Shown here in pieces: positions 1,956 through 19,583 of a stretch of DNA of 32,000 nucleotides (positions within the stretch are counted from its first letter, which is position 1; each line of letters begins with the position of its first letter). The notes below the pieces were generated by a model. It made no database searches, had not been told where the DNA came from, and worked only from the letters and a program-made list of their open reading frames with translations. A program made the translations under genes and the position numbers. The stretch spans positions 630,001 through 662,000 of the forward strand of contig CP064967.1 of NCBI GenBank assembly GCA_016699265.1. The letters are read 5' to 3'. The DNA comes from Candidatus Saccharimonadota bacterium (GTDB lineage Bacteria; Patescibacteriota; Microgenomatia; UBA1406; GWC2-37-13).

Positions 1956-2257
1956 CATATTTGTTAATCGCTGCAAACGTAGCAATGCTCCTTACATTAG
2001 CTTTGGGCTTCCGAACACTTCCTCCAGCACTACCACTCTTTTACTCCAAACCCGGAGGTGAAATGCAGCTTGCGGTATGGTGGCTCATTCTGATTATTCC
2101 GGTATGTATGAATGGACTCTACATCCTAAACAATACAATTACCCGAAAGTTATTTTCTCAGTCCGACTTTGCGTATAAAATTATTCATTATGCCAATCTA
2201 CTACTCATCGGTATCTTCACTATGATTTTTATAAAAATTGTTACGCTTGTCTCATAA
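1952..2257 (+). CDS. Small integral membrane protein (about 3 TM segments), function unknown
   Basis: The start overlaps the glyA stop (ATGA) and the stop overlaps the next start (TAATG), which suggests translational coupling. The sequence is hydrophobic. Confidence 0.55.
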   Translation: MTYLLIAANVAMLLTLALGFRTLPPALPLFYSKPGGEMQLAVWWLILIIPVCMNGLYILNNTITRKLFSQSDFAYKIIHYANLLLIGIFTMIFIKIVTLVS

Positions 2258-3317
2258 TGGCACCGGTTTTGGCGCTCATACTTTCAGCATCATTTTCTTA
2301 CTGCTTTACCATTCCGACTATCTGGCTCGCAAAAAAACTCAGACTCGTCACCGACTCAAAAACTCGTAAGCACCCAGCACATACGCATACCGGAATCATT
2401 CCACGCGCAGGCGGAGTCCCGATATTTTTAGCGTTCCTTTGTAGTGCGTTCGTCTTTCTCGACCTTGATAAGATTGTTGTGGGTATCATGATTGCAAGCT
2501 TAATTCATGTGCTTATCGGTCTGTACGATGACTATATCGACAGTTCACCGTATTCACGATTCGTGGGTAATTTTCTCGTTGCGGCTATTGTGGTCGCAGC
2601 AGGACTTGGAATTCCCTATCTTTCAAATCCATTCGGGGGAGTCGTTCATTTTGACTCAATAGTTTGGTCATTTAGTCTAATTGGTCCTCACAGTATTCTC
2701 GTGATCGGTGATCTGCTTGCTATAATCTGCCTGTCTGGACTACAAATATGGTTAACTGGAGTAAGGGTGTAGACGGGCAGCTCCCTGGTTTCGTTGCGAT
2801 TGCAGGTATTTTTCTCGGTTTACTCTCTCAGAGGTTCGTGGCGCATGATGTGAGCGCACAGACTGTTATGACTTTGTCATTTATCTTTGCTGGAGCATAT
2901 CTTGGGTTTCTTCCATTTAATTTTTATCCCCAAAAAATAATGCCAGGATATGGCGGAGGAGGTATGGCAGGACTTTGGTTGGGAATTCTAGCAATTCTTT
3001 CATTCGGAAAAATCGGAACGGCCATCTTAATTCTTGCGATTCCAACTACAGATGCGGTCTATAGTATCTTAAGAAGACTCAAGAACAAGCAGTCACCATT
3101 CAAGGCAGACTGGGGTCATTTTCATCATAAACTCCTTGAGATTGGGTGGGGAAGGCGAAGGATTGCTGTATTTTACTGGAGTGTCTCCGCAGTTCTTGGA
3201 GTCGCCAGTTTATTTTTGCAGGGAGTCGAAAAGGTGATAGCATTTGCGATGGTGAGCATAGCCCTCCTAATCTTCATTCTCGCAATCGACCAGCTTAAAC
3301 TGAAAAAATTTAATTAA
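2257..3317 (+). pseudogene. Glycosyltransferase family 4 (WecA/TagO/MraY-like polyprenyl-phosphate HexNAc-1-P transferase) split by a frameshift near 2720-2740
   Basis: ORFs 2257..2772 and 2748..3317 are the two halves of one polytopic protein. GLYDDYID lies in the first half and N.VNW.KGVDGQLPG (the NxxNxxDGxDG motif) in the second. The second frame is open from 2712, and the phase changes by 1 nt. Confidence 0.8.
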
Positions 3318-12002: not shown

Positions 12003-12602
12003 TCACTTTAACTCTAAGCTTTTCCACAGAACTCTACTTGCATAGGTTCTATAAGGTTTCCATCTGGAAACTATCATCTCAATCTGTTTTATAGAAGGCT
12101 CTTCCTTAAGTCCGTAAACCTTGATAATTCCTTTTTTAAGACCAAGGTCTCCAAAGGAAAATACGTCTTCTCTACCCAGAGCAAAGATCAAGAACATCTC
12201 TGCTGACCAAGGACCTATGCCCTTTATCTGAACCAGGGTATTGATGACATCTTCATTGCTCATATGCTCTAGCTTATCGAGATTCACAGTTTTATTATCA
12301 ACTTTCGCTGCTAAATCTTTGAGACTTCTAACCTTTGCCCATGATGCTCCACATTCTCTAATCTTTTCGTCGGGAATATTAAACAAGGCTTGAGCAGTTA
12401 TGTTCTTTTTAGGGAAAAGGTTTTTAAATCGTCCAAAAATTGTAGCTGCGGCCTTGCCCGATAGTTGTTGCGAAATAATAGTATCGCAGAGTTCTGAAAA
12501 AAAATTACGTGACTTTCTTAGGGGTATAAGAGGATTTTTTTCTATGTATCCGTATAGTTTGGAGTCTACGTTTTGAAGATGCTTTCGAGCCTTATGACTC
12601 AT
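12003..12602 (-). CDS. HhH-GPD superfamily DNA glycosylase (DNA-3-methyladenine glycosylase II, AlkA-like)
   Basis: Helix-hairpin-helix IKGIGPWSAEMFLIF followed by FSFGDLGLKKG (catalytic Asp region). Confidence 0.8.
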   Translation of the reverse strand: MSHKARKHLQNVDSKLYGYIEKNPLIPLRKSRNFFSELCDTIISQQLSGKAAATIFGRFKNLFPKKNITAQALFNIPDEKIRECGASWAKVRSLKDLAAKVDNKTVNLDKLEHMSNEDVINTLVQIKGIGPWSAEMFLIFALGREDVFSFGDLGLKKGIIKVYGLKEEPSIKQIEMIVSRWKPYRTYASRVLWKSLELK

Positions 12603-12608
12603 ATTCGG

Positions 12609-12929
12609 TTAAAGCCACTGAACGTAGTCACAACCTTCTGAGGATTTTGTTTCTCGGTTCCAACTATTGGTTGAGCATTTTTTTAGTTTTTTTCCTGAGG
12701 CGCTGGTGTAGATTACAAGTTTAGAACCACATTTCGGACAGTCCTCATCTGTCTGTTCAGTTGCGCCTTTCTGCCACTCAACATAATCACATCCAGTCGA
12801 AGATCTAGTCTCTGCGTTCCAAACATTTGTCGAACAGCGTTTAAGTTTCTTACCTGATCGGGTAGTTGCCATTACTAAAGGACTCTGACACTTTGGGCAT
12901 TTCTCATCAAGGTTCTGTACTTCATCCAT
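12609..12929 (-). CDS. Tandem zinc-ribbon protein (two ~45-aa CPKC...C...GC modules, topoisomerase-type C4 finger-like)
   Basis: CPKCQSPLVMATTRSGKKLKRCSTNVWNAETRSSTGCDYVEW and CPKCGSKLVIYTSASGKKLKKCSTNSWNRETKSSEGCDYVQW. Start placed at Met32 (12929) because of the promoter at 12937-12964. Confidence 0.6.
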   Translation of the reverse strand: MDEVQNLDEKCPKCQSPLVMATTRSGKKLKRCSTNVWNAETRSSTGCDYVEWQKGATEQTDEDCPKCGSKLVIYTSASGKKLKKCSTNSWNRETKSSEGCDYVQWL

Positions 12930-12936
12930 AACAGTC

Positions 12937-12964
12937 ATAGTACCAGCTACAACAGAAAAGTCAA
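12937..12964 (-). promoter_or_regulatory. Promoter TTGACT-N16-TACTAT (minus strand), with the -10 box 7 nt upstream of ATG 12929
   Basis: The minus-sense sequence reads TTGACTtttctgttgtagctggTACTATgactgttATG. Confidence 0.6.
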
Positions 12965-12967
12965 CAA

Positions 12968-14098
12968 TCAAATTTTGAATCCTAGTAAATCTAGCCCTTT
13001 TTTTAGCGTATCGCCGCCACATTCTACTTCCAGATAACGCAGGGCTTCCGGAGTATTAAAATCATCCTCAAGAAATCCTTCAACCTTTTTCCAATCACCA
13101 CTGTTTTGTTCTTGTAACCTAGAGCGTAGAGCTTTGAACTTTTTCTCGTAATTTTTTAATTCATCTTCTTCGTATTCCCATGGATGGCGGTAGTGGTGGG
13201 ACAAAAGCAACCAACGAATGGCGCAAGAGGAGTATTTTTTCAAAAGATCCTCCACCAAAACTAGATTACCAAGGGATTTAGACATCTTCTCTCCTTCAAA
13301 CATTACCATGCCGGTATGCATCCAAAACTGAACATATGGTTTTTTACCGGTAAAACTTTCGGACTGGGCAACTTCACTTTCATGATGAGGAAATATGAGG
13401 TCCCTACCACCACCGTGTATGTCGATCTGGTCACCAAGAGCCTCCTCTACCATTGCAGAGCATTCAATGTGCCATCCAGGTCTTCCCGGTCCCCAAGGTG
13501 ACTTCCAGTTAGGATCTCCTTTAGCTTTTACCCATAAAACAAAGTCCATTGGATTTTTTTTATTAGGATCTGTTGGATCGTTTCCTCTCTCCTGAGAGAT
13601 CATGAGCATCTGATCACGACCATATTTTGACAGAGATCCATAACCTTCGAACTTTGAAATATCAAAATATACATTCCCATTTTTTACGTAAGCAAAACCA
13701 TTCGCTATAAGTGCTTCATTCATTGAAATTATTTGACCCATCACGCTTGACGCCAAAATATACTTGTCTGGTGGTAATACATTCAGCGCGTTCATCTGCT
13801 TATGAAAGTGTTCGATCCACTGTCGAGCTATCTCGGTCCATGATTTACCTGCCTCCGCCGCCTGTTTTATCACGTCGTCTCCGTCATTGATGTCAGTTGC
13901 ATTCTGTATATAGGTAACGCTTAATCCTTTGAATTTTAAATATCTAATAAGAGTGTCGAAAACCGCGTATGTAAATGCATGACCTAAATGAGTAGCGTTG
14001 TTTGGAGTAATGCCGCAGACATATAGCTTAACAATACCTTTACTAAGGGGAACAAAATCCTTCTTATTTCTCGATAAAGAATCGTATAATTGGAGCAT
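12968..14098 (-). CDS. Class-I cysteine ligase of MshC-like architecture (CysRS catalytic core without an anticodon-binding domain); a pipeline would probably call it cysS
   Basis: HIGH motif HLGH, KMSKS present, WHIECS Zn/Cys-binding region. Only about 105 aa follow KMSKS. The motifs [28 protein letters not shown] and GNLVLVEDL resemble MshC as recalled. Confidence 0.75.
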
Positions 14099-14106
14099 AA
14101 AGGCTA

Positions 14107-14135
14107 ATTATACCGATTCGAGATCGTAATTTGAA
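14107..14135 (-). promoter_or_regulatory. Promoter TTCAAA-N17-TATAAT (minus strand), with the -10 box 8 nt upstream of ATG 14098
   Basis: The -35 hexamer is the last unit of the TTTGAAR heptamer repeat. Minus-sense TATAAT lies at 14112..14107. Confidence 0.55.
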
Positions 14136-14150
14136 GTTTGAAATTTGAAG
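14130..14150. repeat. Three tandem heptamers TTTGAAG TTTGAAA TTTGAAG
   Basis: Read directly. The 15-mer tttgaaatttgaagt is identical to 29217-29231. Confidence 0.85.
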
Positions 14151-14213
14151 TCAATATTTGAAAATTAAGCAATTAATAATTGAATATATATTAAAAACTT
14201 TAAATTAAAAATT

Positions 14214-14870
14214 ATGAAAAAGGTCTTATGTATTTTCGCTCATCCAGATGATGAGTCCTTCGGCCCTTCAGGAACCATTCACCTGCTTACGAAAACTCAT
14301 GAAGTCTACCTCGTCTGCATTACAAACGGAGACGCTGGAAAGAATTCTCATAAAACATCTAAGCTCCCTTTAGCTAAAATTCGCCAGCGTGAACTGAGAG
14401 CGTCCTCAAAATTTTTAGGCACAAAAAAAGTGTTTTTTCTAAACTACGGAGACGGTTCGTTAAATAATCTCCAGTATCACGACATCGCCAAAAAAATAAA
14501 GAAAATTAGTGATCGGCTCAAACCGGAAACTTTCATCACATTCGAACCTCGTGGCGTTTCCGGACACCTTGACCACATTGCCGCATCGATGATCACAAGT
14601 TACGTATTTGAGCGAACACCATATGTAAAAAAACTTATGCATTATTGCCTGAGTAAGGATCAGACAAGCTCAATGGGTGAGTATTTCATCTACAGACCAG
14701 AAGGTTACAGTGCGGATGAAATTGATGAGGTAGTAGACATTTCAACCGTTCGTGAGCTAAAAACTGCTTCAATGTATCTTCACAAATCACAGGTCCACGA
14801 TGCGCAAAGAATTATCAAATTATTTGGAAACTTTACCAAGGAACACTTCATTGTTACTGAAAGGAATTAA
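14214..14870 (+). CDS. PIG-L/LmbE-family N-acetylglucosaminyl deacetylase (MshB/BshB family)
   Basis: The N-terminal signature VLCIFAHPDDESFGPSG and the metal-binding GHLDH. Confidence 0.85.
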   Translation: MKKVLCIFAHPDDESFGPSGTIHLLTKTHEVYLVCITNGDAGKNSHKTSKLPLAKIRQRELRASSKFLGTKKVFFLNYGDGSLNNLQYHDIAKKIKKISDRLKPETFITFEPRGVSGHLDHIAASMITSYVFERTPYVKKLMHYCLSKDQTSSMGEYFIYRPEGYSADEIDEVVDISTVRELKTASMYLHKSQVHDAQRIIKLFGNFTKEHFIVTERN

Positions 14871-14880
14871 GTTCGGGTTG

Positions 14881-14886
14881 TATAAT
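14881..14886 (+). promoter_or_regulatory. -10 box TATAAT, 6 nt upstream of ATG 14893
   Basis: The sequence reads tgTATAATgtcactATG. Confidence 0.5.
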
Positions 14887-14892
14887 GTCACT

Positions 14893-15399
14893 ATGCCAAA
14901 TCATCCAGAACAAGGAGCTTTCGATCTCGGAGACAAGCGACGACCAGAACCATCTAGCGATCCTGACAGCTTTGAAGGAGTTAGAAGAACTATTTCAGGA
15001 GGGCGAAAAGGCGTTCGACCTAATCCTACCGACCCACTCCTTAAAGGAGCTACCGAATTGCTTGAAGAACCAGAGGCAAAAGAATTGCCAGTTTATACTC
15101 ATACTATCGCCCCCCATAAAAGAGTTTATTATATCGATGAAGATCCTAGTGGCCAGCGCTTACCAAGTTGGACAACTAGAACTCTACATCTGTGTGAAAC
15201 GAACCAAACTATTCTGGTTACTGAAGCAAGAAGGAGAAAGAAATTGTTTACAACCACAGAGGACAGTGAAGCTCATCGAGAAGGTAGACCTTTATCGTTT
15301 TTTCCTGCAGGGGCTAGGGTTGCCACATCCGATGCAGTACGCCGCAAGACAATGGGCATGAACCAACCTCCATCAACGCCACTCCCTCAGCCCCGCTAA
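14893..15399 (+). CDS. Hypothetical Pro/Arg/Glu/Thr-rich protein (168 aa), probably largely disordered
   Basis: This is the Met32-onward part of ORF 14800..15399. The frame has A/T-rich third positions, G-rich first positions and host-like cca/cct/gga/gaa codons. The overlapping 158-aa frame does not. Confidence 0.55.
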   Translation: MPNHPEQGAFDLGDKRRPEPSSDPDSFEGVRRTISGGRKGVRPNPTDPLLKGATELLEEPEAKELPVYTHTIAPHKRVYYIDEDPSGQRLPSWTTRTLHLCETNQTILVTEARRRKKLFTTTEDSEAHREGRPLSFFPAGARVATSDAVRRKTMGMNQPPSTPLPQPR

Positions 15400-17110: not shown

Positions 17111-18291
17111 ATGAATATTAAGAATTTTGAGGTAATGAGATGGCATAGTTTTTTCGACGGTTTCATACTACATGCACCAATAGCAGTTATATATTTTGCT
17201 AAAGTTTCTGGTTCTTTTGCGCTTGGAATGAGCGTTTTCTCAATAGGAATGGTTTCTTCTGCACTTTTAGAGATACCTACGGGAATTTTCTCGGACAAAA
17301 TAGGTAGGAAGAAAACAATCCTGCTTGGTAGTATTTCTAGTGTTGTCTTTATCTTCATTTATGCAATGGCTACCTCTTACCAAATGCTTTTAATGGGAGC
17401 TGTTATCGCGGGTTTTTCACGTAGCTTGTTCAGTGGTAATAACGAGGCACTGTTGCACGACTCACTTAAAGAAAATGGGATTGAAAAAGAATTTTCTCAC
17501 TACTATGGCAAGGTTAGCGCAATGGAACAATCCGCTCTTGGAATTGCAGCAGTCATTGGTGGAATAATAGCCTCTTGGTCTCTGAGATCAGTATTCTGGT
17601 TTTCACTAATCCCTCAAATAATCTGTGTATTTCTAAGCTTTCAACTAACAGAACCCAAAGTGCATTCAAAAGAATCAGGTAATATCTATCTCCACCTTAA
17701 AGAAGCGCTAAAAGGATTTGCGACTAACAAGAAACTTCGTCTTTAACACTCGCCAGCTCCACTACGTACGCTTTAACCGAAAGTTCATTTCAATTCAGAT
17801 CTGCTTTTTTCAATCGCTCTGGCCCAGTATGGGCTCTCGGATTCGTGCAGGCGATTTCAAACATTTGTGCAACTATCAGTTTTTGATTTTAGCGATCGGG
17901 TTTTGAAAAATTTGGCGATATTAAATCCTTAGTAGCAGGCAATGTTTATGGGCGTGTTTTAAATATTATTGGCACTCATTTCCTACGATACTTTCCCCAA
18001 TGGATCATGTCCCTAACATCAATAATTTATGGAGTGCTTACTGTGGCAAAGGAATCACTACTCCAGAAAGAGTATCAACAAGAACAGAGAGCAACGATGG
18101 GATCTCTAAATTCTTTTGCAGGTAGTTTTTATTCCAGGGTAGTTGCCTTCTGTCTTGGACTCATTGCTGATGCTCTAAATCCGGCAAAGGCGTTGTTAAT
18201 AATGCAATTTTTTACAGCAGCTACAATAGTTTTTTATCTTTTGATTGCTCGGCATGATAAACTATCAAAGAAAATTTCTTTAAATAACTAA
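17111..18291 (+). pseudogene. MFS transporter interrupted by three homopolymer-length frameshifts
   Basis: ORFs 17111..17746, 17718..17906 and 18007..18291 are consecutive pieces of one 12-TM-like protein. Phase changes occur at T3 17742-17744, T5 17880-17884 and A5 17906-17910. Repairing each by 1 nt gives a continuous ...KKLRLLTLASS... ...ATISFDFSDRVLKKFGDIKSLVAG... sequence. Confidence 0.75.
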
Positions 18292-19583
18292 TGTCATTTT
18301 TTTATCTGTACAAGCTGTGGTTATGGATCGGGATCTTGGATTGGAAAATGCCCAGACTGTAATGAATGGAACACACTGAAAGAACATAAAGATGACGAGA
18401 AACAGGATAAAAAGAATCTCCAAGAATTTACGAGTACAAAGTTTAGCGATATTGAGATTAGCGATAAACAACGAAAAAAAACGGGAATCTTCGAGTTCGA
18501 CCGAGTTCTTGGTGGCGGAGTTGTCCCTGGTGAGGTAATCATGCTTACAGGTGAGCCTGGTATTGGAAAGTCTACCCTACTGCTTCAAGCGCTTCAAAAC
18601 TTGCAACGGTGTATGTTTCGGGTGAAGAATCCGGCGAACAGGTCAAGGATCGCGCTCTGCGGCTTAGGATACCACTATCTAAGCTTCAGTTCTCAGATGT
18701 TCTTCAGATTGAGTCGGTCATTAAAGGTGTACAAAATATCTCAAAAACCTCTCTGGTCGAGCTTCTTGTTATTGATTCTGTTCAGACCGTTTACTCAAGA
18801 GAGATACCGGCAACAGCAGGTAGCATAACTCAACTCAAGGAAACAACCCAAAAGCTTGTACAGTTTGCAAAAATCTAATATCCCTGTCATTATTATTGGA
18901 CACGTGACTAAAGATGGAGATATTGCAGGACCGAAAATGTTAGAGCATCTTGTGGACTGCGTTCTATTGTTTGAAGGAGAAAAGGTTTCTCATCACAGAG
19001 TACTCAGATCATTAAAGAATCGTTTTGGTTCTACCGATGAAATCGGTATTTTTGAGATGGACGAAAAAGGTCTCAAAGAAATAGACAACCCCTCGCCTTT
19101 CTAGAAAATCAACAAACAGAAATGGTGCTGGGTAAGGCAATCGTGGGTGTGGCGGAGGGTAAGAGACCTTTATTTTTTGAGATTCAGACATTAACTGTTC
19201 CGACCACCCTAAACTTCCCGAGAAGAATCGTAAATGGCGTTGACTATAACAAAGCACTCTTACTCCTTGCAGTCATACGAAAGCATCTGAACATTTCCCT
19301 CGACAGCCTAGACGTGTATATTAATGTCGTAGGAGGCGTACAGGTTAAGTCACCTGCAGTAGATTTAGGAATTGTTGCCGCGCTACTCTCTTCCCTTTCT
19401 AACCAAGCTGTTCCTAAAAAAACGGTGTTCTTTGGCGAGGTAGGACTATTGGGTGAGGTTCGTACCGTCTCATTTCAGGACAAGATAGGTCAGGAAGCCA
19501 CCAGACTAAAGTTTAGTACTATTATTTCTTCCAAAAATCTCAAAAACATTAAGGATCTAAAACGTATTCTTTTTCCACGATAG
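18291..19583 (+). pseudogene. radA: DNA repair protein RadA/Sms interrupted by four 1-nt frameshifts
   Basis: All RadA modules are present but lie in different frames: zinc finger CTSCGYGSGSWIGKCPDC, Walker A GEPGIGKST, YVSGEES, KNRFG, and a Lon-like C-terminus. Phase changes occur at T7 18297-18303, A4 18596-18599, A5 18869-18873 and cc/ttt 19096-19100. Confidence 0.85.

What the first reader, a model, noticed from the sequence alone, without database searches (positions are those of the whole stretch)
12968..14870. MshC-type cysteine ligase divergently paired with an MshB/LmbE-type deacetylase: a candidate cysteinyl-aminosugar (low-molecular-weight thiol) module
Seen in the sequence: ORF 12968..14098 (-) has the class-I HIGH (HLGH) and KMSKS motifs and the WHIECS region of CysRS. 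Only about 105 aa follow KMSKS, and the protein ends about 27 aa after DDFNTPEA. That leaves no room for the helical anticodon-binding domain of canonical CysRS, where E. coli has about 190 aa after KMSKS. Several stretches resemble actinobacterial MshC as I recall it, more than they resemble CysRS: [16 protein letters not shown] (MshC GITPYDATHLGHAATY), [14 protein letters not shown] (MshC ERGGDPDRPGK), GNLVLVEDL (MshC GNLVLVS) and the LDLLGFKI end. A PIG-L/LmbE deacetylase (AHPDDES, GHLDH) lies 115 bp away and is divergently transcribed. Established knowledge: in mycothiol synthesis MshB (LmbE family) deacetylates GlcNAc-Ins and MshC ligates Cys to the freed amine. BshB plays the deacetylase role for bacillithiol. 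Inference: the pair could make a cysteinyl-glucosaminide-type thiol or metabolite in a lineage where none is described. The alternative is that this is simply a minimal housekeeping CysRS that happens to sit next to a deacetylase.
Basis: partly seen in the sequence, partly recalled or inferred. Interest (0 to 1): 0.72.

Follow-up and report, generated by a model that had tools for sequence, protein, structure and literature searches.

The report
MshC-type cysteine ligase beside LmbE deacetylase
A tiny-genome (Microgenomates/CPR) bacterium carries a shortened cysteine-activating enzyme of the same evolutionary branch as the mycothiol enzyme MshC, repeatedly found next to or fused with a sugar deacetylase, so it may make an unknown cysteine-sugar compound, or it may be a stripped-down cysteinyl-tRNA synthetase.

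Summary
Both genes are real and intact. ORF 12968..14098(-) is a 376-aa class I cysteine ligase with HIGH, KMSKS and all four zinc ligands. It has no anticodon-binding domain. A PIG-L/LmbE deacetylase lies 115 bp away on the other strand.

- **Length:** the short form is conserved in more than 120 homologues, mostly from Microgenomates.
- **Placement:** the protein does not group with canonical CysRS. It groups with MshC-like proteins (NJ bootstrap 99/100) in a clade of proteins that all lack the domain.
- **Shared changes:** the clade has a 4-residue ERGxDP insertion. It has also replaced four residues that are 88-98% conserved in canonical CysRS (R42, K73, K185, N237).
- **Link to PIG-L:** the pairing recurs as two fusion proteins, four tight co-directional pairs and the divergent pair here. 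Two PIG-L subfamilies are involved. Only 1 of 80 mostly canonical CysRS loci has a PIG-L within 10 kb.

Against an MshC call:
- The MshC model cut-off is not met.
- No MshA- or MshD-like gene is in the window.
- The local pairing sits inside a roughly 25-kb conserved block.

I could not test whether these ~1-Mb genomes hold a second CysRS.

Verdict: cysteine-aminosugar ligase module about 0.45, minimal CysRS about 0.38, bifunctional about 0.1.

The parts
12968..14098 (-). Gene for a 376-aa class I cysteine-activating ligase of the MshC-type branch, which lacks the anticodon-binding domain (stop codon 12968-12970)
   Evidence: ORF. Pfam tRNA-synt_1e 373.5 bits. NCBIfam cysS 410.8 and MshC 357.6 bits. 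Clade placement. AlphaFold2 model pLDDT 94.
13979..13990 (-). HIGH motif (HLGH, residues 37-40). It is followed by A-F, where canonical CysRS has G-R (E. coli R42).
   Evidence: R42 is basic in 91% of canonical sequences and in 0% of the short clade.
13532..13609 (-). Loop of the connective-peptide (CP) domain, [26 protein letters not shown] (residues 164-189). It carries the 4-residue insertion and ERG motif shared with MshC.
   Evidence: Gap-free alignment to MshC and a 4-residue gap against CysRS. The loop is 29 residues in 41 of 50 short-clade sequences and 25 in 94 of 129 canonical ones.
13274..13288 (-). KMSKS motif (residues 271-275)
12971..13168 (-). Shortened C-terminal helical bundle (residues about 311-376, including DDFNTPEA at 345-352), ending in LDLLGFKI. 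No anticodon-binding domain follows.
   Evidence: Helices 311-327, 336-344, 349-359 and 362-371 in the model. TM-score normalised to the target is 0.85 for MshC 3c8z and 0.74 for full-length CysRS 1u0b. No C-terminal domain elsewhere in the window.
14099..14213 (.). 115-bp AT-rich region between the two divergent genes, with back-to-back promoter-like sites (minus strand TTCAAA-17-TATAAT at 14135..14107; plus strand TTGAAA-16-GAAAAT at 14138..14165)
   Evidence: The number of promoter-like sites in the region is no higher than in shuffled sequence, so this is only suggestive.
14214..14870 (+). Gene for a 218-aa PIG-L/LmbE-family metal-dependent de-N-acetylase or amidase ('type A' subfamily, widespread in Microgenomates)
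   Evidence: Pfam PIG-L 104 bits. Best NCBIfam hit BshB2, 81 bits, below the 195 cut-off. Best solved relative is archaeal diacetylchitobiose deacetylase, 74 bits. Orthologues in Curtiss- and Roizmanbacteria and in L148 and L155.
14238..14258 (+). AHPDDES motif of the deacetylase (residues 9-15; metal ligands and general base of LmbE enzymes)
   Evidence: The assigned roles come from established knowledge of MshB and LmbE enzymes.
14562..14576 (+). GHLDH motif of the deacetylase (residues 117-121; second metal-binding His motif)

Best explanation
Shown: the minus-strand gene encodes a complete cysteine-adenylating enzyme. It has HIGH, KMSKS and the zinc site C28/C213/H238/E242. [quoted passage not shown] The only biochemically characterised member of that branch is the mycothiol ligase MshC.

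Shown: this branch is repeatedly adjacent to or fused with PIG-L/LmbE deacetylases.

Inferred mechanism: the PIG-L enzyme removes the N-acetyl group from a GlcNAc-containing compound. The ligase forms Cys-AMP and passes the cysteinyl group to the freed sugar amine. The product would be an N-cysteinyl-glucosaminide, meaning a mycothiol- or bacillithiol-like thiol or a cysteinylated glycoconjugate.

Unknown: the aglycone, the glycosyltransferase that makes the GlcNAc compound, and any later acetylation.

Consequence: this reading requires a separate route to Cys-tRNA somewhere else in the genome.
For: 1. The CPR family and the MshC-like group cluster together and exclude all 129 canonical CysRS representatives in 99 of 100 NJ bootstraps. 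The smallest clade holding this protein and M. smegmatis MshC has 50 members. All are short, or are short ligases fused to PIG-L.
2. The clade shares rare changes. The CP loop is 29 residues in 41 of 50 members, against 25 in 94 of 129 canonical sequences, and carries the ERG motif. The truncation point after the helical bundle is the same.
3. E. coli R42, K73, K185 and N237 are 88-98% conserved in canonical CysRS. They are replaced in every short group, here by F42, D75, V190 and S241. Loss of three conserved basic residues near the active site would fit loss of contacts with the tRNA 3' end. That is inference.
4. The CPR proteins retain canonical-conserved positions no better than the MshC-like group does (0.776 against 0.735).
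5. There are two independent fusion proteins of ligase plus PIG-L: P0133 (634 aa) and P0314 (648 aa). They are 56% identical and come from different samples.
6. Tight co-directional pairs occur in L118, L148, L155 and L167. Two PIG-L subfamilies, only 26-31% identical to each other, are involved, and four gene arrangements are seen.
7. PIG-L lies within 10 kb of CysRS in only 1 of 80 mostly canonical loci.
8. Established knowledge: in mycothiol synthesis the LmbE enzyme MshB acts just before MshC.
Against: 1. NCBIfam scores cysS at 410.8 bits, above its cut-off of 340. MshC scores 357.6, below its cut-off of 485.1.
2. The closest solved sequence is E. coli CysRS (324 bits) rather than MshC (275 bits).
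3. No GT4 (MshA/BshA-type), GNAT or inositol-phosphate synthase gene is in the 32-kb window or next to relatives.
4. The host genome is about 1 Mb (contigs of 928,688 and 1,012,456 nt). Two CysRS-type genes plus a thiol pathway would be costly in so small a genome.
5. I saw no canonical CysRS attributable to CPR bacteria in any result, though the sample was small.
6. In L148 and L155 the gene order is gltX, PIG-L, ligase. That resembles the gltX-cysE-cysS arrangement of housekeeping cysS in Bacillus, which I cite from memory.
7. In this lineage the pair lies inside a roughly 25-kb conserved block of housekeeping genes.
8. The pair is absent in L005, L006, L007 and L013.
9. The ligase is as conserved as the neighbouring ArgRS.
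Confidence: 0.45

Rival explanations
1. Minimal housekeeping CysRS. The short enzyme is the only cysteinyl-tRNA synthetase of these reduced genomes. It recognises tRNA-Cys through the acceptor end (U73, first base pairs) and the tRNA core, without reading the anticodon. Under this reading the PIG-L partner has one of two explanations. It may simply be carried along in a conserved block. Or it may supply cysteine, for example as a BshB2/Mca-like amidase that releases Cys from scavenged host cysteinyl-aminosugar thiols or N-acetylated cysteine. MshC would then descend from such a short CysRS.
For: - The cysS model cut-off is passed and the MshC cut-off is not.
- All zinc ligands are canonical, including E242 and Q245, which M. 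smegmatis MshC has changed.
- The N-terminal motif L-S/T-R-x-K-x-x-F is kept as in canonical CysRS but not in the other short groups.
- The gene sits among translation genes: ArgRS here, gltX in L148 and L155, and AspRS, the CCA-adding enzyme and YqeY in L005 and L006.
- NCBI names the family cysteine--tRNA ligase in Levybacteria and other Patescibacteria genomes.
- It is conserved like ArgRS.
- The genomes are about 1 Mb.
- There is a precedent. CysRS* of Desulfobacterales lacks the anticodon-binding domain and still charges a tRNA (PMC5389517).
Against: - The protein shares a clade, an insertion and the loss of R42, K73, K185 and N237 with MshC-like proteins.
- In the Acidimicrobiales locus L081 and five JGI loci with best matches to L081, the short form sits beside a canonical CysRS and is clearly a paralogue.
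- Chloroflexia, Dehalococcoidia and Anaerolineae contain both short and canonical forms. That fits paralogy better than replacement.
- Recurrent fusion and operon linkage to a GlcNAc-type deacetylase has no known role in tRNA charging.
- In E. coli CysRS, changing anticodon base G34 costs more than 1000-fold in activity (PMC13449415).
Confidence: 0.38
2. Bifunctional enzyme. A single enzyme lacking the anticodon-binding domain both charges tRNA-Cys and cysteinylates the aminosugar made by the PIG-L partner. It would represent the state from which the dedicated MshC evolved.
For: This reading reconciles the two sets of evidence above. One set is small genomes, translation-gene neighbours and a passed cysS cut-off. 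The other is MshC-clade membership plus recurrent PIG-L coupling.
Against: - No direct evidence exists.
- Dual acceptor specificity in one class I active site is unprecedented for CysRS.
- Loss of R42, K73 and K185 argues against normal binding of the tRNA 3' end.
Confidence: 0.1
3. Chance neighbours. The ligase and the deacetylase have unrelated functions and lie together only because gene order is frozen in this lineage.
For: - The whole block from NUDIX and HrcA through DnaK, EF-P, RadA, ArgRS, PIG-L, the ligase and LytR_C to GT2 is kept at 59% ligase identity.
- The pair is absent from L005, L006, L007 and L013.
Against: - The association recurs as fusions and tight operon-like pairs in other lineages. 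Different gene orders and a second PIG-L subfamily are involved.
- The background rate is 1 in 80.
Confidence: 0.07

Closest known systems
MshC (L-cysteine:GlcN-Ins ligase of mycothiol synthesis, Actinobacteria; PDB 3C8Z, 8HFM)
   Same: - Both have a CysRS-type catalytic core with a zinc site.
- Neither has an anticodon-binding domain, and both end at the same point after a short helical bundle.
- They share the 4-residue ERGxDP insertion, the GITPxxATHLGHA motif and the GNLVLV motif.
- They fall in the same clade (99/100 bootstrap).
- Structural match: TM-score about 0.90 normalised to the query and 0.85 to the target.
- In the mycothiol pathway an LmbE-family deacetylase acts just before MshC.
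   Different: - The TIGR03447 score is 357.6, below the cut-off of 485.1.
- Sequence identity is only about 36-39%.
- This protein keeps E242 and Q245, where M. smegmatis MshC has S and H.
- No MshA, MshD or inositol-phosphate synthase gene is nearby.
- The host is a roughly 1-Mb CPR bacterium, not an actinobacterium.
- In the MshC-like group, 0 of 59 loci had an adjacent PIG-L.
Canonical bacterial CysRS (TIGR00435; E. coli 1LI5, 1U0B)
   Same: - HIGH, KMSKS, all four zinc ligands and W209 are present.
- The TIGR00435 score is above its cut-off.
- It is the best solved-sequence match, at 324 bits.
   Different: - About 85-90 C-terminal residues are missing, including the anticodon-binding domain (CysS_C).
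- The CP loop that reads the first acceptor base pair is replaced by a longer ERGxDP loop.
- R42, K73, K185 and N237 are replaced.
- The protein branches outside all 129 canonical representatives.
CysRS* of Desulfobacterales (Mukai et al., PMC5389517)
   Same: It is a CysRS paralogue without the anticodon-binding domain and with an altered CP1 loop. It shows that such enzymes can still charge a tRNA.
   Different: - CysRS* is encoded with selB* and selC* and serves a special tRNA-Cys(UCA). No tRNA or selB-like gene is near this gene.
- I could not obtain its sequence, so I could not place it relative to the short clade.
MshB, BshB1, BshB2, Mca and diacetylchitobiose deacetylase (PIG-L/LmbE family)
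   Same: - The neighbour has the PIG-L fold signature (104 bits) and the AHPDD and HxDH metal motifs.
- Its best named matches are BshB2 (81 bits) and the archaeal Dac deacetylase (74 bits).
   Different: - It is far below every equivalog cut-off (BshB2 195, BshB1 182, MshB 224).
- Its substrate cannot be assigned.
- It could act either as a deacetylase or as an amidase.

Membership tests
Canonical cysteinyl-tRNA synthetase | Class I catalytic domain with HIGH, KMSKS and a Cys/Cys/His/Glu zinc site | tested here: met
   HLGH at 37-40, KMSKS at 271-275, and C28, C213, H238, E242 present.
Canonical cysteinyl-tRNA synthetase | Curated model TIGR00435 at or above its cut-off | tested here: met
   410.8 bits against 340, but only profile positions 1-325 of 466 are matched. 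Most short-clade members tested also reach it, including MshC-like ones (scores 331-398; 5 of 10 at or above 340), so it does not discriminate.
Canonical cysteinyl-tRNA synthetase | C-terminal anticodon-binding domain (CysS_C) that reads GCA | tested here: not met
   The protein ends 24 residues after DDFNTPEA. No CysS_C hit. The model ends in a short helical bundle. No remnant in any frame of the window.
Canonical cysteinyl-tRNA synthetase | Family-wide conserved residues R42, K73, K185, N237 and a 25-residue CP loop | tested here: not met
   F42, D75, V190 and S241 are found instead, and the loop is 29 residues.
Canonical cysteinyl-tRNA synthetase | Branches within canonical CysRS in a phylogeny | tested here: not met
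   It groups with MshC-like proteins and excludes all canonical representatives, 99/100 by NJ. Only a distance method was available.
Canonical cysteinyl-tRNA synthetase | Charges tRNA-Cys and is the genome's only CysRS | not testable with these tools
   Only 32 kb of the genome is held.
MshC (mycothiol cysteine ligase) | Curated model TIGR03447 at or above its cut-off | tested here: not met
   357.6 bits against 485.1.
MshC (mycothiol cysteine ligase) | CysRS-like core without an anticodon-binding domain, plus the ERGGDP-type CP loop | tested here: met
MshC (mycothiol cysteine ligase) | Common ancestry with MshC, separate from canonical CysRS | tested here: met
   NJ bootstrap 99/100 and the shared insertion.
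MshC (mycothiol cysteine ligase) | Occurs with MshA (GT4), MshD (GNAT) and inositol-1-phosphate synthase | tested here: inconclusive
   None is present in the 32-kb window or in 6-10 kb flanks of relatives. The rest of the genome was not seen.
MshC (mycothiol cysteine ligase) | Ligates Cys to GlcN-Ins | not testable with these tools
   This needs a biochemical assay.
PIG-L/LmbE deacetylase (neighbour gene) | PF02585 domain with AHPDD and HxDH metal motifs | tested here: met
   104 bits against a cut-off of 28.2. AHPDDES at 9-15 and GHLDH at 117-121.
MshB, BshB1 or BshB2 equivalogs (neighbour gene) | Curated equivalog cut-offs | tested here: not met
   BshB2 81.3 against 195, BshB1 57 against 182.5, MshB 44.7 against 224.
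CysRS* (Desulfobacterales opal-decoding system) | Encoded with selB* and selC* tRNA-Cys(UCA) | tested here: not met
   No tRNA gene in the window or in 13 related loci apart from two tRNA-Arg genes. No SelB-like gene nearby.

The most novel reading that the evidence does not exclude
The enzyme is the only CysRS-type protein in these ~1-Mb Microgenomates genomes and does two jobs. It charges tRNA-Cys without reading the anticodon. It also cysteinylates the aminosugar released by its PIG-L partner. That would make it a living intermediate from which the dedicated mycothiol ligase MshC evolved. It would also reveal a cysteinyl-aminosugar thiol in CPR bacteria and Chloroflexi.
Probability: 0.1. 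Interest if true: 0.9.

Novelty: new variant of a known kind. Interest (0 to 1): 0.68.

Why it matters
Cysteinyl-aminosugar thiols are known only from Actinobacteria (mycothiol, made by MshC) and from the Firmicutes-type bacillithiol lineages (made by the unrelated BshC).

The data here show that MshC is one twig of a much wider branch of CysRS-like ligases that lack the anticodon-binding domain. That branch is found in CPR bacteria (Microgenomates) and Chloroflexi and is repeatedly coupled or fused to LmbE-type deacetylases.

Either outcome is informative:
- These lineages may make an undescribed cysteine-sugar compound. That would be the first low-molecular-weight thiol proposed for CPR bacteria and a clue to their redox biology or envelope chemistry.
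- A large group of bacteria may translate cysteine codons with a synthetase that cannot read the anticodon. That would change the picture of tRNA-Cys identity and of how MshC arose.

It also matters for annotation. NCBI calls these proteins CysRS and JGI often calls them MshC, so metabolic reconstructions of CPR genomes inherit an unresolved call.

I found no paper that describes this clade.

Tried and rejected
1. **Truncation by frameshift or assembly error:** rejected. The length and the C-terminal LGF ending are conserved in more than 120 homologues, and the model is confident to the end. Other genes in the window are frameshifted, so the check was needed.
2. **Anticodon-binding domain encoded separately nearby:** rejected. 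The downstream ORF is a double zinc ribbon. No match to the C-terminal domain exists in any frame beyond the ligase's own DDFNTPEA helix.
3. **T-box, tRNA-Cys or other RNA element near the gene:** none found.
4. **GTDB genome scan for relatives:** this was meant to give relatives and their neighbours. I used the scan as a background control instead.
5. **Matching 'longest contig' lengths between the ligase and PIG-L hit lists:** I used this to infer co-location. 109,583 was confirmed, but 1,860 proved to be a coincidence. The remaining matches (3382, 3965, 4097, 7216, 10584, 18421, 23343, 58196) were not checked.
6. **Names of canonical CysRS representatives, to find a CPR full-length CysRS:** the named ones were archaeal, Chloroflexi, Actinobacteria, Dadabacteria, Thermodesulfobium and PVC-group. 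This was uninformative.
7. **Published contact residues for GlcN-Ins in MshC or for the tRNA 3' end in CysRS:** not available in the held papers.
8. **CysRS* sequence for comparison:** no supplement is held.
9. **Recurrent neighbours of Chloroflexi-type short ligases:** TatD, ribosomal protein S6, a PPIase, DUF192 and trehalose phosphatase. No glycosyltransferase or GNAT was found.
Full report
**Observation**

The two ORFs exist as described. ORF 12968..14098(-) encodes 376 aa and ORF 14214..14870(+) encodes 218 aa, with 115 bp between them.

The first protein is a class I CysRS-type catalytic domain (Pfam tRNA-synt_1e, 373.5 bits). HLGH lies at residues 37-40, WHIECS at 209-214, KMSKS at 271-275 and DDFNTPEA at 345-352. 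The protein ends in LDLLGFKI.

The second protein is a PIG-L/LmbE domain (104 bits) with AHPDDES and GHLDH motifs.

The window is a typical Microgenomates (CPR) fragment. It holds SHMT, rhamnose and UDP-sugar enzymes, a GT2-GtrA protein, ArgRS, RadA, EF-P, DnaK/DnaJ/GrpE/HrcA, the CCA-adding enzyme and SecDF. An identical PIG-L protein is named 'Microgenomates group bacterium' by NCBI. It occurs on 100 contigs, the longest 928,688 nt.

**The short length is real**

- More than 120 database homologues at 53-100% identity are 375-400 aa long and end in the same LGF motif. NCBI calls them cysteine--tRNA ligase (Levybacteria and other Patescibacteria). JGI calls them either CysRS or MshC.
- An AlphaFold2 model built on 40 family members has pLDDT 94 and pTM 0.92. 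It ends in a short helical bundle with no further domain.
- Foldseek matches CysRS (8qhp, 1u0b, 3tqo, 1li5) and MshC (8hfn, 8hfm, 3c8z) about equally when normalised to the query (TM 0.85-0.91). Normalised to the target, the score is 0.85 for MshC and 0.74 for full-length CysRS bound to tRNA. The architecture is therefore that of MshC.
- No trace of a CysRS C-terminal domain exists elsewhere in the window. The downstream ORF is a double zinc ribbon.

**Family scores do not settle the call**

NCBIfam gives cysS 410.8 bits (cut-off 340, profile positions 1-325 of 466). It gives MshC 357.6 bits (cut-off 485.1, positions 18-379 of 411). Ten other short proteins, including MshC-like ones from 4.5-Mb genomes, also fall between the two models. 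Their MshC scores are 333-428 and their cysS scores 331-398. The cysS cut-off therefore does not separate the two kinds.

**Phylogeny and shared rare changes**

I searched the 50%-identity representative library. I then built NJ trees on 322 core columns. The set included canonical representatives, E. coli, Coxiella and archaeal CysRS, M. smegmatis MshC, the CPR family, and Chloroflexi and Actinomycetota sequences.

- The smallest clade that holds this protein and MshC has 50 members. Every one lacks the anticodon-binding domain.
- CPR family plus MshC-like group, excluding all canonical sequences, is recovered in 99 of 100 bootstraps. The full 50-member clade is recovered in 63 of 100.
- The clade shares a 4-residue insertion in the CP-domain loop. 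The loop is 29 residues in 41 of 50 members, against 25 in 94 of 129 canonical sequences. It carries an ERG motif absent from 95% of canonical sequences.
- According to Mukai et al. (PMC5389517), this is the CP1 region that reads the first acceptor base pair.
- Four positions are 88-98% conserved in canonical CysRS: E. coli R42, K73, K185 and N237. All four are replaced in all short groups, here by F42, D75, V190 and S241.
- Overall retention of canonical-conserved residue classes is similar in the CPR family (0.776), the Chloroflexi and fusion group (0.759) and the MshC-like group (0.735).

Exchanging three conserved basic residues for aromatic, acidic and polar ones near the active site is what a switch from a nucleic-acid acceptor to a sugar acceptor would look like. 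That is inference. I could not find published contact maps for these residues.

**Coupling to PIG-L deacetylases**

*Within this lineage.* The divergent pair is kept at 77% ligase identity (L001) and 59% (L094). At 64% (L003) an MFS gene lies between the two. However, a whole block of about 25 kb is syntenic at 59% identity. This conservation alone therefore proves little. The pair is absent from four other family members at 52-61% identity (L005, L006, L007, L013).

*Outside this lineage.*
- P0133 (634 aa) and P0314 (648 aa) are fusions of a short ligase with a C-terminal PIG-L domain. They are 56% identical and come from different samples.
- A motif scan of JGI metagenomes returned 120 short-type loci.
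- In four of those loci PIG-L is immediately adjacent and co-directional.
  - In L118 and L167 it lies downstream and the genes overlap.
  - In L148 and L155 the order is gltX, PIG-L, ligase, with gaps of 28 and 13 nt. L155 is on a 1,012,456-nt contig of 40% GC.
- Two PIG-L subfamilies take part, and they are only 26-31% identical to each other.
  - Type A (48-61% identical within the group) comprises the window protein, the Curtiss- and Roizmanbacteria proteins, L148 and L155.
  - Type B (48-57% identical within the group) comprises the fused domains, L118 and L167.
- As a control, only 1 of 80 mostly canonical CysRS loci from GTDB genomes has a PIG-L within 10 kb.
- None of the 59 MshC-like loci had an adjacent PIG-L.
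- The Acidimicrobiales locus L081, and five JGI loci whose best matches are to L081, place the short gene beside a canonical CysRS. There the short gene is plainly a paralogue.

**Interpretation**

The protein belongs to the MshC branch and not to canonical CysRS. The ligase-deacetylase association is also a real, recurrent feature.

The most economical mechanism copies the MshB-to-MshC logic. The deacetylase frees a sugar amine, and the ligase transfers cysteine from Cys-AMP onto it.

I hold this at about 0.45 rather than higher, for these reasons:
- The MshC cut-off is not met, and the PIG-L enzyme is far below the MshB and BshB cut-offs.
- No GT4, GNAT or inositol-phosphate synthase gene accompanies the pair anywhere I looked.
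- These genomes are about 1 Mb.
- The gene sits among aminoacyl-tRNA synthetase genes: ArgRS here and gltX in L148 and L155.
- I never saw a full-length CysRS attributable to CPR bacteria.

The rival reading is a minimal housekeeping CysRS without anticodon reading, at about 0.38. Its precedent is CysRS* (PMC5389517). Under that reading the PIG-L partner could be a cysteine-supplying amidase of the BshB2/Mca kind, or a frozen neighbour. A bifunctional enzyme (about 0.1) would reconcile both sets of evidence. Pure chance adjacency is unlikely (about 0.07).

**What could not be done**

The decisive test is whether the same genome has a second CysRS, and it was out of reach. Only 32 kb of the genome is held. 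Loci come with at most 10 kb of flank. The phylogeny is distance-based only. The literature searches found no description of MshC-like ligases in CPR bacteria or Chloroflexi.

**Verdict**

This is a genuine and unusual feature. It is a new variant of a known kind: an MshC-type cysteine ligase clade outside Actinobacteria, coupled to LmbE-family enzymes. The acceptor is unresolved and could be an aminosugar or tRNA-Cys. Interest is 0.68.

Noticed in passing
window 12609-12938 (-): A 109-aa protein with two Topo-I-type C4 zinc ribbons lies about 30 nt downstream of the ligase. It has its own promoter-like site (TTGACT-16-TG-TACTAT at 12964..12937). It is 98% identical in L001, where the flanking genes are 64-86% identical, so it is unusually conserved. 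It stays next to the ligase in L002 and L094 but lies elsewhere in L003. It might be a nucleic-acid-binding partner, but that is untested.
   Followed up: partly
window 2257-3317, 17111-18279, 18298-19580: Three genes look disrupted. The MraY/WecA-like gene is split into two ORFs. The MFS transporter changes frame near 17740-17788. RadA changes frame near 19090 and is broken into fragments. The cause could be indel errors in the assembly or pseudogenes. The ligase and PIG-L genes are intact.
   Followed up: partly
window 1-32000 compared with L094 (GCA_964561915.1) and L001 (GCA_964366455.1): About 25 kb of gene order is conserved down to 59% ligase identity. The block runs from MiaB-like and rml/UGDH genes through GT2-GtrA, PEGA, LytR_C, the ligase, PIG-L, ArgRS, RadA, HTH, EF-P and DnaJ/K/GrpE/HrcA to NUDIX. 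Gene order is very stable in this Microgenomates lineage.
   Followed up: yes
L148 1923-5130 and L155 5552-8922: The genes gltX (GluRS), PIG-L (type A) and the short ligase are co-directional with gaps of 13-28 nt. The L155 contig is 1,012,456 nt. PIG-L occupies the place that cysE holds in the Bacillus gltX-cysE-cysS operon, which I cite from memory. This suggests a possible role in cysteine supply.
   Followed up: partly
L081 9926-12663; also L124, L150, L173, L193, L214: In the Acidimicrobiales locus L081, a short MshC-like gene (about 390-433 aa across these loci) lies directly beside a canonical CysRS (450-508 aa) on the same strand. The five JGI loci, whose best matches are to L081, show the same arrangement.
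   Followed up: partly
L003 1819-3501: The ArgRS of this syntenic relative is only 33% identical to the window's ArgRS, while neighbouring genes are 46-74% identical. The argS gene may have been replaced in place by a non-orthologous copy.
   Followed up: no
window 14885-15361 (+), overlapped by 14800-15399 (+): A 158-aa ORF with no Pfam match lies between PIG-L and ArgRS on the same strand. A 144-aa gene with no Pfam match sits there in L001, and none is present in L094. A 199-aa ORF in another frame overlaps it and is probably spurious.
   Followed up: no
L007 and L008 (ligase 6001-7170 in L007): In this 54%-identity relative the short ligase is flanked by a divergent MFS transporter and a convergent methionine sulfoxide reductase (MsrA), which is a thiol-dependent repair enzyme. 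This was seen in one lineage only.
   Followed up: no
L011 5214-5846 and window 12003-12602: The fusion gene P0314 is followed by an Ogg-type HhH DNA glycosylase. The window's ligase is followed, after the zinc-ribbon gene, by an HhH-GPD glycosylase. This may be a remnant of shared gene order between the fusion lineage and the CPR lineage.
   Followed up: no
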